Shown one piece after another: positions 2,534-13,403 of a DNA stretch of 64,000 nt. The notes under the pieces are model-generated. The model was not told where the DNA came from, searched no databases, and worked only from the letters and a program-made list of their open reading frames with translations. Position numbers and translations under genes: made by a program. Positions within the stretch are counted from its first letter, which is position 1. Every line of letters starts with the position of its first letter. Source of the stretch: Minisyncoccota bacterium (GTDB taxonomy: Bacteria; Patescibacteriota; Minisyncoccia; Minisyncoccales; JAQTVQ01); NCBI GenBank assembly GCA_041657385.1, contig JBBABZ010000004.1, forward strand, positions 1,867 to 65,866. Direction: 5' to 3'.

Positions 2534-3532
2534 TTATTTGCCGCCCAGTTCTTTTATCTTCTCCTTCAATTCCGCCATTCTCACTTCTCGGCCGATGGTC
2601 AATCTATAAAACTTTTCAAGCTCTTCTTTATTAAGGCTTAGCTCTTCGGTATTTTTATTCACTTTTTGCTCTAGCATTTCTTTCATCTTCTCTTCTTTGC
2701 GGGCGTATTGGACCAGTATATAGCCGATAAAGCTAAAGAATATAAAAATTAAAGCCATCAATATTTTTAGGCCGGTATTCGGCATAAAGAAAGGGACAAC
2801 CAGCAGTATGGTTCCCATTATCCCTACAAGTATTTCCGTTAAGACCACTTTTATGCCGAAAAGGCTGGAACGGGCGATGCCTAAAGTCGTAAATATTAAT
2901 AAAATGATCACTGTGACGCTATCAAGGCTTGCGAAAGCTGTTATTCCGAACAGAGGCAAAATGAAGCTGGTAATAGCGGTGAACGTGCTCCATATGCCTC
3001 CTCCCAATAATATATAGAGTATTTGTTTTCTAAGATTGCCTTCCGCCTTGAGATATGATGAAGCAAGAATATAGATTATGGTTCCTGCGGCAAATAAATA
3101 ATATGCCGACATAAAAGGCATTGCCGGCCCCATCACCCCTTTAAAACTTCCGCCGGCGGAGATGTTTTCAGCATTTTTTATCAATAGATCTCCGGCAATT
3201 GAAACGAAGAGCAATATCGCGGCTGGAGCCAGATAGATGAATACTTTTAGCTTGGTCAGCTTTTTGTTGCAAAGAGCAAGAGACCAGAAAACTCCAAAAG
3301 CCGGGACAAATGCGCCTATCCCATAGGCAAGCTTTACCCATATCGCTTCCGGCTCTATCGCGGACATGAAATTAGTGAAATTCCATACAGCCGTTATTAT
3401 TCCGAATGCTCCAAATATCCTGTTAAGCTGTTTTTTTGGATCTTTGGAAAAAACCAATAAGCCTAAGAATAAGCTGAATATCGTAGAAATTAAAATAAGT
3501 ATTGCAAAAATGTTTAAACTTAATGCAGGCAT
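2534..3532 (-). CDS. 7TM+2TM sensor-like membrane protein with conserved C-terminal helix, no kinase core (paralog 1)
   Basis: The N-terminus is polytopic and hydrophobic. The protein ends EELEKFYRLTIGREVRMAELKEKIKELGGK-stop. Confidence 0.8.
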   Translation of the reverse strand: MPALSLNIFAILILISTIFSLFLGLLVFSKDPKKQLNRIFGAFGIITAVWNFTNFMSAIEPEAIWVKLAYGIGAFVPAFGVFWSLALCNKKLTKLKVFIYLAPAAILLFVSIAGDLLIKNAENISAGGSFKGVMGPAMPFMSAYYLFAAGTIIYILASSYLKAEGNLRKQILYILLGGGIWSTFTAITSFILPLFGITAFASLDSVTVIILLIFTTLGIARSSLFGIKVVLTEILVGIMGTILLVVPFFMPNTGLKILMALIFIFFSFIGYILVQYARKEEKMKEMLEQKVNKNTEELSLNKEELEKFYRLTIGREVRMAELKEKIKELGGK

Positions 3533-3550
3533 AAAATCAAAAATATAATA

Positions 3551-4576
3551 TTATTTTTTTATTTTATTCTCCATCTCTTTTATTTTGTCTTTCAGCTCGG
3601 CCATCCTCACTTCCCTGCCGATGGTAAGTTTATACCATCTTTCCAGTTCGGCCGCTCTTTCCTCGGCTGTTTTTTTGCTCTGTTCAAGTTCTTTAGTGCG
3701 GTCTTGGACCAGTCCTTCCAGAAGATTTTTTGCATTTATTTCTTTATATGTATATTTTATCAATAAATAACCGATGACGAGGAACAACAGGAAAAATCCG
3801 AAAGCCAGTGCAGCTAAAGTGTCTGTCGGCATAAGAAAAGGAAAAATAAAGAGGGCTGTTCCCATAACAGCGACCAGCATTTCGCTGATGATGACTTTGA
3901 TATTAAGAAATCCGTATTTTAATATCGCGAAAGCGAAGATGGATATGAATATTACAGTATAGAATGGGGCGAAGTTGGTCAGCGAAAAGTTTTTGAAGAA
4001 GATCGGAAGCAATAAGTTGGTTATGATGCTCAATATTAAAAAGGCGGCCATCCCCGAGATCAGCAGCCGGAGGGTTTTTTTGATCTCCTGCTCCGCAGTT
4101 TTTGAATATTTATATATCATATTCGTTATGGCCGTTATCAAACAGCCGGCTAAAAAAGCAACGTAAAAATATTTTCCCTGGCCGAAGGTTATCTCGGAAA
4201 AATTTTCTTTCAATGTAATTTTTTCTATTAAGAACGGGGTTAGGGAGATAACGGCTGCTGCGCCGAATAAAAGAAAAGATATTGAGAAATATTTTTTTCC
4301 CGGGATGCTATTTTCCGGAAAAACTTTTGAGAATATTAAAAATGACCATGTTGCAATGGCGCATCCGATAAAAATCAGCTTATTCCATAAAATGGCGGAT
4401 CGGTAATCTTGCACGGAGTTGGAAAGATAATTGGAAACTATCCAAATGGTGATCCCTAAAGACATTAAAACGAAATATTTACTGGAGCGGCGTTTAAAAC
4501 CGTGGATCAAAACTATCCCTACGAGTTCCAAATTAAGCAGTGCGGCAGTTAGAACTATTAAAAATTGAAGATCCAT
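3551..4576 (-). CDS. 7TM+2TM sensor-like membrane protein with conserved C-terminal helix (paralog 2)
   Basis: It contains FAILKYGFLNIKVIISE and the PFLMPTD loop. It ends AELERWYKLTIGREVRMAELKDKIKEMENKIKK-stop. Confidence 0.8.
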   Translation of the reverse strand: MDLQFLIVLTAALLNLELVGIVLIHGFKRRSSKYFVLMSLGITIWIVSNYLSNSVQDYRSAILWNKLIFIGCAIATWSFLIFSKVFPENSIPGKKYFSISFLLFGAAAVISLTPFLIEKITLKENFSEITFGQGKYFYVAFLAGCLITAITNMIYKYSKTAEQEIKKTLRLLISGMAAFLILSIITNLLLPIFFKNFSLTNFAPFYTVIFISIFAFAILKYGFLNIKVIISEMLVAVMGTALFIFPFLMPTDTLAALAFGFFLLFLVIGYLLIKYTYKEINAKNLLEGLVQDRTKELEQSKKTAEERAAELERWYKLTIGREVRMAELKDKIKEMENKIKK

Positions 4577-4594
4577 TTTTTTGTTTATTGCTTG

Positions 4595-4640
4595 TTATTT
4601 TCCATCTTTTTTATTTTTTAACTTCGTCATCTTCGCTTCC
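4595..4640 (-). pseudogene. Decayed 3'-end fragment of a sensor-family paralog
   Basis: The minus strand reads GAAGCGAAGATGACGAAGTTAAAAAATAAAAAAGATGGAAAATAA (EAKMTKLKNKKDGK-stop). It aligns by eye at about 80% nucleotide identity to the EVRMAELKDKIKEMENK-stop ends of the intact paralogs. It starts 8 nt after the lysK stop. Confidence 0.45.
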
Positions 4641-4647
4641 TTATAGA

Positions 4648-11574: not shown

Positions 11575-11578
11575 AGGA

Positions 11579-12250
11579 TCAAAAAATTCCTTTTTCGCTG
11601 AATGTCGCGAAATAAGGCTGTGCTTTTTTTATCTTGAAATAGTTAGCCATATATCTGCGTTGTTTGATGGTCCCTTCTGTTTCTGGGAGTAAAGGAATAA
11701 GGTGAGTCGGAGTACAGAATATTTTATTTATTCTCAGATTTAATTTTTCTGAAACAAAAAAAATTAGATTATTTAATTTTAATTCTTTACTTTTTTTATA
11801 AGCCGTTTTTATTAAGCCTAACCAAACCCAATATCTTTGAACGCTTAAATTTTTTTTAGTAATAGCTAGCTTAGATATCTCTCCAGTGTTTGAAAGCTGC
11901 AAAGGAAACTTGTCAATATCGATATCATACATTCGGAAAGTCGGAAAATCTATTGGTTTATCTCCTAATACTAATCTTAACGTACCGACAGGAACCCCTT
12001 TTTTAGTGGCTAAAAAACTAATAGAATGGCTATCTTCTTCATCTTGCATTTTTTTATTTGGAAAAATTTTTGAATCGACATATCTGTGTTCGCTATAAAT
12101 TTTATATCTTAAATGGTAGACCATTTCTTTCTCTTCGTTTGTTTTTGCTTCTATCACCTTTATTCCTTCTATCATCAAGATGGGATCTATGAGGGAAGCT
12201 ATTATTTCAAGTCTAATTTTTTTTAGCAATAAGTATATTTTTTTTAGCAT
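11579..12250 (-). CDS. GNAT-fold acyltransferase, possibly N-acyl amino acid synthase-like
   Basis: The 223-aa product contains YHLRYKIYSEHRYVD..VGTLRLV..GEISKLAI, a pattern recalling the FeeM/LuxI-like acyltransferase fold. The assignment is weak. Confidence 0.4.
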   Translation of the reverse strand: MLKKIYLLLKKIRLEIIASLIDPILMIEGIKVIEAKTNEEKEMVYHLRYKIYSEHRYVDSKIFPNKKMQDEEDSHSISFLATKKGVPVGTLRLVLGDKPIDFPTFRMYDIDIDKFPLQLSNTGEISKLAITKKNLSVQRYWVWLGLIKTAYKKSKELKLNNLIFFVSEKLNLRINKIFCTPTHLIPLLPETEGTIKQRRYMANYFKIKKAQPYFATFSEKGIF

Positions 12251-12253
12251 ATT

Positions 12254-12409
12254 TATTTAATAAAAAAACTCTGCCTTAGCAGAGTTTTTAGTAAATTTTA
12301 CAAATCCTAAAAACATTATTCTATCCGAATTTTCATTAGCCAATCTTATTGAATTTAGCCCTGTCATATACTTAATTATCCTCTTATTTTTCGGTCTTTT
12401 TGTCAATTT
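12254..12409. repeat. Left copy of a ~155-bp direct repeat (last 8 codons of paralog 7, terminator and downstream spacer)
   Basis: It aligns by eye at about 75-80% identity with 19029-19183, starting at TATTTAA(T/C)AAAAAACTC(T/C)GCC and ending at CTCTTATTTTTCGG(T/G)CTTTTTGTCAATTT. Confidence 0.75.
12264..12289 (-). terminator. Symmetric intrinsic terminator downstream of paralog 7
   Basis: The sequence AAAAACTCTGC-CTTA-GCAGAGTTTTT is a perfect 6-bp GC-containing stem flanked by A and T runs. Confidence 0.7.
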
Positions 12410-13403
12410 CCAGTTCTTTTATTTTTTCTTTTAACTCTGCCATTCTTACTTCCCTGCCAATGGTCAGCTTATACCATTTTTCCAGCTCCTGCGCCCTTTC
12501 TTCGGCAATTTTTTTGCTTTGTTCTAGTTCCTTGGTGCGATCTTGGACTTTTTGTTCTAGTGTTTCTTTGGCTTTTAACTCATTTCTGGCATATTCAATC
12601 AAAAGGTATCCGGCTATACAGAAAAAGAAAAAGATAATAATAGCGGATATTCTCAAAAAATCGGTGGGCATGAGGAAGGGAAAAATCGCCAGTACTATCC
12701 CTATCGCGAATACTAAAATTTCAGTCAAGATCAATTTTATATTAAAGAGGTGGTAGCGCGTGATGGCAAAAAAAGTGAAGACTACGAAAAAGATGGAAGC
12801 TAGAGGGCCTATCTTGTAATATTGGGAAGTTTTAAAGAACAAGGGAAATATTAAGTTTGTGAAAGTTCCGGTCAAGGTGCTGATTAATATTCCGCATAAA
12901 AAATATTCAATTTGTTTCTTCTCTATGGGGGTTTTTACGGTTTTCAATTTTTTAATCACATTTAATATCCCCCAACTCGCGAACAAAAGAAAATATGCGG
13001 CGAACAAAAAATAAAGTTTTCCTTGAACATATCCAAGATCGGCCGATGTAGCTTTTTCCACGATCAGGTTTGAGAACGCGCAGATGAAAGAAATAGAAGA
13101 AACGATTAACCAAAAAATAGTTTTTAATAAAAATGGTTTTTTAGACTCACAGCTGGGGAAATATAAAGAGAACCAAAATAAATAACCCGCGATCAGGGAA
13201 GCTCCGGCAAAAGCGATTTTTGTGCCAATAATAGAACTTATATTAGTAAAGCTTCCTACCATCCATAGTGCTATCCCTAATGTTATTCCCAGGAAAGCTT
13301 TATTGGAGTCTTTTCTTTTATCGCTTAAATAAACGATTAATCCCAACCCTATATTTAGCGTCAGAATAAAGAAATAAATAAAAGCAAACGGATCTAAAAG
13401 CAT
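12384..13403 (-). CDS. 7TM+2TM sensor-like membrane protein with conserved C-terminal helix (paralog 7)
   Basis: It contains FAITRYHLFNIKLILTE and PFLMPTDFLRIS. It ends QELEKWYKLTIGREVRMAELKEKIKELEIDKKTEK-stop. Confidence 0.8.
   Translation of the reverse strand: MLLDPFAFIYFFILTLNIGLGLIVYLSDKRKDSNKAFLGITLGIALWMVGSFTNISSIIGTKIAFAGASLIAGYLFWFSLYFPSCESKKPFLLKTIFWLIVSSISFICAFSNLIVEKATSADLGYVQGKLYFLFAAYFLLFASWGILNVIKKLKTVKTPIEKKQIEYFLCGILISTLTGTFTNLIFPLFFKTSQYYKIGPLASIFFVVFTFFAITRYHLFNIKLILTEILVFAIGIVLAIFPFLMPTDFLRISAIIIFFFFCIAGYLLIEYARNELKAKETLEQKVQDRTKELEQSKKIAEERAQELEKWYKLTIGREVRMAELKEKIKELEIDKKTEK

What the first reader, a model, noticed from the sequence alone, without database searches (positions are those of the whole stretch)
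2534..12560. Linker between the last TM helix and the invariant motif comes in lengths of 17, 24 or 31 residues (heptad steps)
I counted residues between the conserved LEQKV (LEGLV in paralog 2) and the YKLTIGRE block.

- **17 residues** in paralogs 1, 5, 8 and 9, for example AERTKELAERNEELEKF.
- **24 residues** in paralogs 2 and 7: QDRTKELEQSKK(I/T)AEERA(Q/A)ELE(K/R)W.
- **31 residues** in paralog 3: KERTGELEKSEKVAEEAKKVAEERAAELERW.

The increments are exactly 7 residues. This is what is expected if the segment is a continuous coiled coil whose phase relative to the membrane must be preserved. The result supports the view that the terminal helix is a functional signalling or docking element and not a degenerate tail.
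Basis: seen in the sequence. Interest (0 to 1): 0.6.

Follow-up and report, generated by a model that had tools for sequence, protein, structure and literature searches.

The report
Heptad-stepped coiled-coil stalk of kinase-less sensors
Eight membrane sensor genes of a Paceibacterota (CPR) bacterium lack a kinase domain. Instead they carry a helical stalk whose length changes only in whole 7-residue steps, ending in a near-invariant 22-residue tip that is common in sensor proteins of bacteria and archaea but is not in Pfam or NCBIfam.

Summary
In the window the segment between LEQKV/LEGLV and Y[KR]LTIGRE is 17 residues in four genes, 24 in two and 31 in one.

The rule holds far beyond the window.
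- 88 non-redundant family tails give only 17, 24, 31, 38 or 45.
- In 212 motif-bearing instances from many phyla, the Arg of the S-helix 'ERT' signature and the Arg of the terminal 'GRE' motif are 14 to 49 residues apart, a multiple of 7 in 208.
- Only one real exception was found, an 11-residue insertion.

AlphaFold2 predicts one unbroken helix from the last membrane helix to the C-terminus. The 31-residue form in the window comes from a 21-nt tandem duplication.

So the 'linker' is the distal part of a known signalling helix (S-helix) coiled coil. Heptad-quantised linkers are a known principle.

What is less ordinary is the tip. It replaces the kinase domains and never shares a reading frame with a kinase catalytic domain. 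It sits in a conserved kinase, sensor(s), receiver-only regulator operon. It also ends PAS, GAF, Cache-HAMP, PocR and receiver proteins across bacteria and archaea. It is conserved on outward-facing positions, which suggests docking. Its partner is unknown.

The parts
2534..3532 (-). W1: kinase-less 7TM sensor. Linker 17 aa at 2609-2659, tip motif at 2543-2608. The ERT signature is degenerate (KNT).
   Evidence: The HisKA_7TM match is below threshold for this copy.
3551..4576 (-). W2: HisKA_7TM sensor. LEGLV at 3707-3721, linker 24 aa at 3635-3706, tip at 3569-3634.
6276..7322 (-). W3: HisKA_7TM sensor. Linker 31 aa at 6351-6443, tip at 6285-6350.
   Evidence: AlphaFold2 model.
6375..6413 (-). 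21-nt tandem repeat (1.9 copies, 84% match) encoding KVAEEAK/KVAEERA. This is the duplication that turns a 24-residue linker into the 31-residue one.
   Evidence: alignment
7333..8901 (-). W4: HisKA_7TM + GAF + tip motif (7360-7425). It has no ERT/LEQKV.
8988..10019 (-). W5: HisKA_7TM sensor. Linker 17 aa at 9072-9122, tip at 9006-9071.
10021..11574 (-). W6: true histidine kinase of the operon (HisKA_7TM-HisKA-HATPase_c), without the tip motif. The distance from the membrane anchor to the His is 28 residues.
12384..13403 (-). W7: HisKA_7TM sensor. LEQKV at 12546-12560, linker 24 aa at 12474-12545, tip at 12408-12473.
   Evidence: It is 100% identical to P0001, Candidatus Paceibacterota.
2097..2462 (-). 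Receiver-only response regulator that closes the operon.
   Evidence: The same position is seen in L001 and L005.
43641..44648 (-). W8: HisKA_7TM sensor. Linker 17 aa at 43719-43769, tip at 43653-43718.
44668..45687 (-). W9: HisKA_7TM sensor. Linker 17 aa at 44758-44808, tip at 44692-44757.

Best explanation
**What the linker is.** It is the distal half of a signalling helix (S-helix). This is a long coiled coil, inferred to be parallel and dimeric. It runs without a break from the last membrane helix, through the LEQKV-x-ERT signature, to a conserved tip: [FW]-Y-K-L-T-I-G-R-E-[VL]-R-M-A-E-L-K-x-K-I-K-E-[LM]-E.

**Why the steps are 7.**
- In a continuous heptad frame the Arg of ERT and the Arg of GRE both sit at core position d.
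- Every natural length (10, 17, 24, 31, 38 or 45 residues between V and Y) puts the two Args a whole number of heptads apart (14 to 49 residues).
- New lengths arise by tandem duplication of 21-nt or 42-nt units. Only lengths that keep the frame survive.

**What the proteins are.**
- They are kinase-less relatives of HisKA_7TM histidine kinases.
- They are encoded in 1 to 5 copies between one such kinase and a receiver-only response regulator.

**Inferred function.**
- A signal sensed in the 7TM domain changes the packing or rotation of the coiled coil.
- The output is how the tip is presented to a shared partner of the two-component pathway, either the kinase core or the receiver.
- The sensors would therefore act as plug-in co-sensors of one kinase-regulator pair.

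**Shown:** the length rule, predicted helicity, the a/d pattern, the duplication, purifying selection on the tip, the operon, and mutual exclusion with kinase domains.

**Inferred:** dimer geometry, the signal mechanism and the docking partner.
For: **Length rule**
- 88/88 family tails and 208/212 instances overall obey the rule.
- PAS 'DIT' to R(GRE) is 21, 28 or 35 in 45 of 63 instances. It is 46 or 53 in 16 more that carry an S-helix in between (an 18-residue offset). One is 55 and one (65) is a regex artefact. GAF to R(GRE) is 24 or 31.
- in kinase relatives of the same 7TM family the membrane-anchor-to-His distance is 28, 35, 42 or 56, so the tip is constrained like a real output domain.

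**Structure**
- mean pLDDT 90.9, with a single helix over residues 255-347.
- register analysis. Hydrophobic fraction is 0.55-0.69 at position a and near 0 at c and f.
- The ERT signature at c-d-e is described in PMC1592074.

**Origin of the lengths**
- the 21-nt duplication in W3.
- The 31-, 38- and 45-residue forms read as duplicated heptads.

**The tip is functional**
- 43% synonymous codon differences against 14% amino-acid differences.
- invariant or hydrophobic residues at outward-facing b, c and f positions (E-9, V/I-2, G-1, L+2, E+6, numbered from the GRE Arg).
- 229 representative proteins at E<=1e-10.
- at least 371 confirmed loci in CPR, DPANN and many other phyla.

**Context**
- the operon kinase, sensor(s), receiver-only regulator is conserved in two other Paceibacterota contigs (L001, L005).
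- 59 REC and 59 kinase-catalytic reading frames lie in 748 kb around GRE genes. None of the kinase frames carries GRE.
- GRE is also the only C-terminal element after PAS, GAF, PocR, MASE3, CHASE and receiver domains.
Against: - No dimer model or dedicated coiled-coil predictor could be run. The dimeric parallel geometry is taken from what is known of S-helices.
- The inserted heptads have a weak core (Ala at a, Arg or Ser at d), so parts of the stalk may be only marginally coiled.
- One real 11-residue insertion (P0123) and tandem ERT units spaced 18 residues apart (P0105, P0126, P0127) show that the rule is 'coiled-coil-compatible' rather than strictly 7.
- One family member (P0077) has 4 extra residues between the membrane and LEQRV.
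- No partner of the tip was identified. Length changes of 10 Å per heptad argue against a partner held at a fixed height.
- Duplication of heptad-periodic DNA is itself biased towards 21-nt steps.
Confidence: 0.72

Rival explanations
1. Mutational artefact. The 7-residue steps reflect only slippage or unequal recombination in heptad-periodic coding DNA, with no selection on helical phase.
For: - W3's extra heptad is a plain 21-nt tandem repeat.
- The 31-, 38- and 45-residue forms look like copies of neighbouring heptads.
Against: - The 17-versus-24 difference and the 31-residue forms such as NERTLELKQSNDKLVKAFDELKEKQQELEKW are not recognisable duplicates.
- There are no 1-6 residue indels in 208/209 valid instances, although the sensor domains are only 25-45% identical.
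- PAS- and GAF-linked tips and the His of kinase relatives are quantised too.
- The only exception is 11 residues, the other coiled-coil period.
Confidence: 0.1
2. The tip is only a homodimerisation clamp or trigger site that holds the stalk in register. The proteins then act through their membrane domain, for example by pairing with the kinase in the membrane or as ligand sinks, and nothing docks on the tip.
For: - There is a regular a/d core after the GRE (M, L, I, L).
- The R(d)-E(e) pair could form an inter-chain salt bridge.
- No partner was found.
Against: - Outward-facing b, c and f positions are invariant or hydrophobic.
- The same tip ends soluble PAS, GAF, PocR and receiver proteins that have no membrane domain.
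- The sequence is kept almost unchanged between bacteria and archaea, more than a generic zipper needs.
Confidence: 0.2
3. Methyl-accepting stalk. The Glu-rich heptads (KVAEERA and similar) are methylation sites, and added heptads add adaptation sites, as in chemoreceptors or RsbK.
For: - One Nitrospirae operon (L057) puts GRE sensors next to CheR and CheB and a hybrid kinase.
- S-helix methylation is known for RsbK (PMC4574943, listed).
- A SAM methyltransferase lies at 15952-16785.
Against: - This rests on a single locus.
- There is no CheR or CheB in the window or in L001 and L005.
- The 17- and 10-residue forms lack the AEE heptads yet keep the tip.
Confidence: 0.05
4. Decayed kinases. The tail is the remnant of the first helix of a histidine-kinase dimerisation domain, with GRELRM derived from SHELRT, and has no function of its own.
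For: - The tip starts where the DHp helix starts in S-helix kinases.
- There is a superficial resemblance between [GS][RH][ED]LR motifs.
Against: - Profile-profile comparison of the tip with the family's DHp region finds nothing (probability 0.8%).
- The resemblance needs a one-residue shift.
- The tip is under strong purifying selection and has a wide distribution.
Confidence: 0.03

Closest known systems
Signalling helix (S-helix) of Anantharaman, Balaji and Aravind 2006 (PMC1592074)
   Same: - Heptad coiled coil after a sensor module.
- Conserved ERT with Arg at core position d.
- LE-x-x-V-x-ERT-x-EL sequence.
- Also found after 7TM, PAS, GAF, HAMP and receiver domains.
   Different: [quoted passage not shown]
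- Here nothing follows except a 22-30 residue conserved tip.
- The tip carries a second Arg-at-d signature (GRE) locked in phase with ERT.
Heptad-periodic sensor-kinase linkers (YF1 and other LOV/PAS and phytochrome kinases; PMC6798134)
   Same: Natural linker lengths fall in classes 7 residues apart, which is taken as the mark of a continuous coiled coil that transmits the signal.
   Different: The element at the end of the linker is not a DHp/kinase or cyclase domain but a short helix of unknown function.
HisKA_7TM histidine kinases (Pfam PF16927)
   Same: - Same N-terminal 7TM sensor domain.
- One such kinase (W6) is encoded in the same operon.
- Its relatives show membrane-to-His spacings of 28, 35, 42 and 56.
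   Different: No HisKA or HATPase_c domain and no phospho-accepting His.
Chemoreceptor heptad classes (24H to 64H; MiST 3.0, PMC6943060)
   Same: - Paralogous receptors differ by whole heptads.
- They share a highly conserved distal tip that serves a common downstream partner.
   Different: - Here the stalk is a single helix per chain, not a hairpin.
- There is no MCPsignal domain.
- There is no CheA/CheW.
- The partner is unknown.
Effector-less sensors such as short LOV proteins (own knowledge; PpSB1-LOV mentioned in PMC13322254 abstract)
   Same: A sensor module followed only by a C-terminal coiled-coil helix, with the output presumed to be protein-protein contact.
   Different: - The tip here is a specific, widely shared sequence motif.
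- It is attached to many kinds of sensor domain.

Membership tests
S-helix (signalling helix) | ERT signature at heptad positions c-d-e, preceded by LE-x-x-V | tested here: met
   - Six of the eight window genes have [ED]RT after LEQKV/LEGLV.
- W1 has a degenerate KNT.
- W4 lacks the signature.
- In the family, V293, R296 and T297 are invariant or nearly so.
S-helix (signalling helix) | About 40-residue helix with hydrophobic a/d heptad pattern | tested here: met
   - Continuous helix 255-347 in the AlphaFold2 model.
- a/d enrichment of hydrophobic residues, with c/f near 0.
S-helix (signalling helix) | Lies between an upstream sensor/receiver and a downstream catalytic or ligand-binding domain | tested here: not met
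   - The proteins end 22-30 residues after the linker.
- No Pfam or NCBIfam domain is found downstream.
S-helix (signalling helix) | Parallel homodimeric coiled coil | not testable with these tools
   Only monomer prediction was available.
HisKA_7TM histidine kinases (PF16927 + HisKA + HATPase_c) | N-terminal HisKA_7TM domain above Pfam threshold | tested here: met
   Seven of eight genes score 35-57 bits against a cut-off of 28.6. W1 is not detected.
HisKA_7TM histidine kinases (PF16927 + HisKA + HATPase_c) | H-box histidine and HATPase_c catalytic domain | tested here: not met
   - Absent in all eight genes and present only in W6.
- hhalign of the tip against DHp gives probability 0.8%.
- 0 of 59 kinase reading frames near GRE genes carry GRE.
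Heptad-periodic coiled-coil signalling linkers | Natural length classes differ by multiples of 7 residues | tested here: met
Heptad-periodic coiled-coil signalling linkers | Activity depends on linker phase (insertions of 1-3 residues change or invert the output) | not testable with these tools
   Needs an experiment.
Methyl-accepting chemoreceptors / MAC proteins | MCPsignal hairpin or kinase module, with CheR/CheB association | tested here: not met
   - No MCPsignal match.
- No CheR or CheB in the window.
- Only one distant locus (L057) has CheR/CheB.

The most novel reading that the evidence does not exclude
The GRE tip is an undescribed, very widespread output module. Sensor-only proteins of any input type (7TM, PAS, GAF, Cache-HAMP, PocR, receiver) would plug it into a shared histidine kinase or receiver domain through a phase-locked coiled coil. 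One kinase-regulator pair could then read many signals. This would assign a function to a large class of 'sensor without output' proteins in bacteria and archaea, which are especially numerous in small CPR and DPANN genomes.
Probability: 0.25. Interest if true: 0.8.

Novelty: new variant of a known kind. Interest (0 to 1): 0.45.

Why it matters
- **The length rule.** It is a clean natural example of a known principle and adds little by itself.
- **The phase-locked tip.** This short conserved element behaves like an output domain but has no entry in Pfam-A or NCBIfam. It has no solved structure. It is not mentioned by sequence in the searched literature.
- **If it is a docking helix for two-component proteins.** It would explain how many 'output-less' PAS, GAF and 7TM proteins signal. 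It would also show how organisms with one or two kinases sense many inputs.
- **Practical use.** The natural length series (10 to 45 residues, all in phase) is a ready-made design guide for chimeric sensors.

Tried and rejected
1. **Tip as a degenerate H-box (GRELRM versus SHELRT).** hhalign probability is 0.8%, and a one-residue shift is needed. Rejected as homology.
2. **Profile search of the tip against PDB sequences.** Only generic coiled-coil and LSD1 tower matches at E>0.09.
3. **Protein search with a 64-residue HAMP-type tail.** It returned only 7 short fragments because of the word index. These were useful only for the 10- and 28-residue lengths.
4. **Literature search for the motif strings.** No relevant hit. 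'GREERM' matched only authors' names.
5. **Partner helix 'aaLNLAEDA'.** It flanks PocR together with internal GRE copies in long proteobacterial-type proteins. It is absent from the window, so it cannot be the partner here.
6. **Foldseek of the model against the PDB.** Only weak GPCR-like 7TM similarity (TM 0.3-0.46), which says nothing about the tail.
7. **Parsimony of linker classes on a tree of the membrane domain.** About 20 changes against 28 when shuffled. Classes are scattered, but the tree is too weak to separate repeated indels from tail exchange. I therefore count independent events from tail sequence types instead (at least 8).

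
Full report
**Source and genes.** The window is a Candidatus Paceibacterota (CPR) contig. W7 is 100% identical to a protein so named on a 70.6-kb contig. Eight minus-strand genes end in [FW]Y[KR]LTIGRE[VA]RMAELK[ED]KIKE.
- Seven are 332-348 residues long. They consist of a HisKA_7TM membrane domain (PF16927; W1 is below threshold) and a charged tail.
- One (W4) has a GAF domain between the membrane domain and the motif.
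- A ninth relative (W6) is a complete histidine kinase without the motif.

**Checking the observation.** The residues between LEQKV/LEGLV and Y[KR]LTIGRE number 17 (W1, W5, W8, W9), 24 (W2, W7) and 31 (W3), exactly as reported.
- 120 database homologues give 88 distinct tails with lengths 17 (16), 24 (51), 31 (19), 38 (1) and 45 (1). No other value occurs.
- The segment from the last membrane helix (GYLLIK) to LEQKV is constant at 11 residues. The exceptions are +14 in two proteins and +4 in one.

**What the segment is.** LEQKV-x-ERT-x-EL is the hallmark of the signalling helix. In that helix ERT occupies heptad positions c-d-e of a dimeric coiled coil (PMC1592074).
- AlphaFold2, run with a 77-sequence alignment, predicts W3 with mean pLDDT 90.9. 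It shows one uninterrupted helix from residue 255 (last membrane helix) to 347.
- With the ERT Arg fixed at d, strongly hydrophobic residues occupy a (0.55-0.69) and d. Positions c and f are essentially never hydrophobic. All length classes put the tip in the same frame: W/F(d) ... T(a) I G R(d) E ... M(a) ... L(d) ... I(a) ... L(d).
- The GRE Arg is therefore a second Arg at a core d position. The observed lengths make the two Args 14, 21, 28, 35, 42 or 49 residues apart.
- The inserted heptads have a weak core (Ala, Ser, Arg), as is usual for dynamic signalling helices.

**How the lengths arise.**
- W3's extra heptad is a 21-nt tandem repeat at 6375-6413.
- The 31-, 38- and 45-residue forms elsewhere read as duplicated 7- or 14-residue units.
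- Other forms are not recognisable duplicates. From the tail sequence types I count at least eight independent length changes, all multiples of 7.
- Under equal odds for indels of 1-14 residues this has a probability of about 10^-7.
- Mutation bias and selection probably both act. The lack of any 1-6 residue indel, across proteins whose sensor domains share only 25-45% identity, points to selection.

**The rule is general.** A 36-column profile of the tip was searched against 1.84 billion representative proteins. It found 229 hits at E<=1e-10 and 12,799 at E<=1e-3. The weaker hits may include generic coiled coils. A scan of one genome per species confirmed at least 371 loci. They lie in Patescibacteria, DPANN and other archaea, Geobacteraceae, Nitrospirota, Bacteroidota, Chloroflexota and others.
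- In 212 non-redundant instances with an ERT signature, 208 have an R-to-R spacing that is a multiple of 7.
- Three of the four outliers are regex errors. One (P0123) has a true 11-residue insertion.
- Upstream tandem ERT units are spaced 18 residues apart. Both 11 and 18 are coiled-coil-compatible periods.
- Where the tip follows a PAS domain directly, the DIT-to-R(GRE) distance is 21, 28 or 35. It is 46 or 53 when an S-helix lies in between. After GAF the distance is 24 or 31.
- In kinase relatives of the same 7TM family, the membrane-anchor-to-His distance is 28, 35, 42 or 56.
- Evolution therefore treats the tip like a true output domain.

Heptad periodicity of such linkers is established knowledge (PMC6798134). 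Chemoreceptor heptad classes are another precedent (PMC6943060).

**The tip itself.** Among the window paralogs 14% of tip residues differ. Yet 43% of the codon pairs that encode the same amino acid use different codons. This shows purifying selection rather than recent gene conversion.
- Across 317 distinct instances, conservation includes positions that face outward in a two-stranded coil: Glu at b (-9), Val/Ile at b (-2), Gly at c (-1), Leu/Val at f (+2) and Glu at c (+6). Leu at g (-4) and Lys at e (+8), which flank the core, are also conserved. Positions are numbered from the GRE Arg. G-1 and V/I-2 are fixed by the search pattern itself, so only the other positions are independent evidence. 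This suggests contacts beyond self-pairing.
- No Pfam, NCBIfam or PDB entry matches the tip.
- The motif strings do not occur in the searchable literature.

**Context.**
- In two other Paceibacterota contigs the gene order is 7TM kinase, then 1 to 5 kinase-less sensors, then a receiver-only regulator, then AspRS (L001, L005).
- The window has the same frame: W6, then W5, W4, W3, LysRS, W2 and W1, then the receiver at 2097-2462.
- W8 and W9, next to YchF and a radical SAM gene, are syntenic with L003.
- Around 80 GRE loci (748 kb) there are 59 receiver and 59 kinase-catalytic reading frames. No kinase frame carries GRE.
- In Desulfuromonadaceae and Nitrospirae, arrays of PAS-, GAF-, PocR-, MASE3-, CHASE- and receiver-GRE proteins sit beside hybrid kinases with three receiver domains.
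- In some long proteins an internal GRE copy precedes a PocR domain.

**Interpretation.** The stalk is a continuous coiled coil and its phase is conserved. More precisely, the conserved phase is between the sensor/ERT switch and the GRE tip.

I infer that these are plug-in co-sensors of the neighbouring two-component pair and that the tip is the contact surface. This rests on association and conservation only. I put it at about 0.25-0.3.

A simple dimer clamp remains a serious rival. Pure mutation bias, a methyl-accepting role and a decayed kinase are less likely, for the reasons given under the rivals.

**Verdict.** The finding is real and is explained by a known principle. The unusual part is the uncurated, widely distributed terminal module that the rule points to.

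Noticed in passing
window 8902-8987 (minus strand): Directly after the W5 stop codon the same frame reads LRIAELKDKIKGLKIKSKK*. This is a fossil of the 3' half of a tip motif and suggests a past replacement or duplication of the gene's 3' end.
   Followed up: partly
window 11579-12250 (minus strand): - A FeeM-like N-acyl amino acid synthase (PF21926; also a weak match to the exosortase-associated acyltransferase family) lies inside the sensor operon, between W7 and the kinase W6.
- L005 has an unannotated 249-residue gene just downstream of its kinase; here the FeeM-like gene lies just upstream of W6.
- It could make a lipid-like signal.
   Followed up: no
window 13519-17987 (minus strand): Two radical SAM/SPASM genes, a class I methyltransferase and a third radical SAM gene lie just upstream of W7. 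This is a peptide-maturation-like set next to the sensor array. No precursor peptide was looked for.
   Followed up: no
window 4648-6279 (minus strand): A class I lysyl-tRNA synthetase is inserted in the middle of the sensor array. Related contigs have aspartyl-tRNA synthetase right after the receiver gene.
   Followed up: no
window 488-1258 and 1358-2050 (minus strand): Two paralogous proteins with an N-terminal membrane anchor lie downstream of the receiver gene. One has a sub-threshold Peptidase_M23 match.
   Followed up: no
L057 (Nitrospirae), 69-11813: Five GRE-ending sensors (GAF, MASE3-PAS, PocR, CHASE-GAF-PAS, REC-PAS-PAS) share an operon with a 4HB_MCP-GAF hybrid kinase carrying three receiver domains, and with CheR and CheB. 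This layout resembles the uncharacterised MAC2 systems.
   Followed up: partly
L076 1970-2659 (Desulfuromonadaceae): A 229-residue response regulator consists of a receiver domain, two ERT helices and the GRE tip. The tip therefore also serves as the only output of a receiver domain.
   Followed up: partly
P0129, P0133, P0157, P0171, P0249 (long proteins): - Internal GRE copies continue as ...VNEL...G.P.Y.
- They are followed by a PocR domain and then a conserved 'aaLNLAEDAxxAR' helix.
- The two helices may pair around the inserted domain.
   Followed up: partly
P0130 (107 aa fragment): A 17-residue tandem duplication of the tip (QRVTIGREVRMIELKKW twice), which is not a multiple of 7. It could be real or an assembly artefact.
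   Followed up: no
window tails of W1, W5, W8 versus W2, W3, W7: - The residue before the tip tracks the length class.
- It is Phe in most 17-residue forms and Trp in the 24/31-residue forms; W9 is 17 with Trp.
- This hints at two old tail lineages.
   Followed up: no
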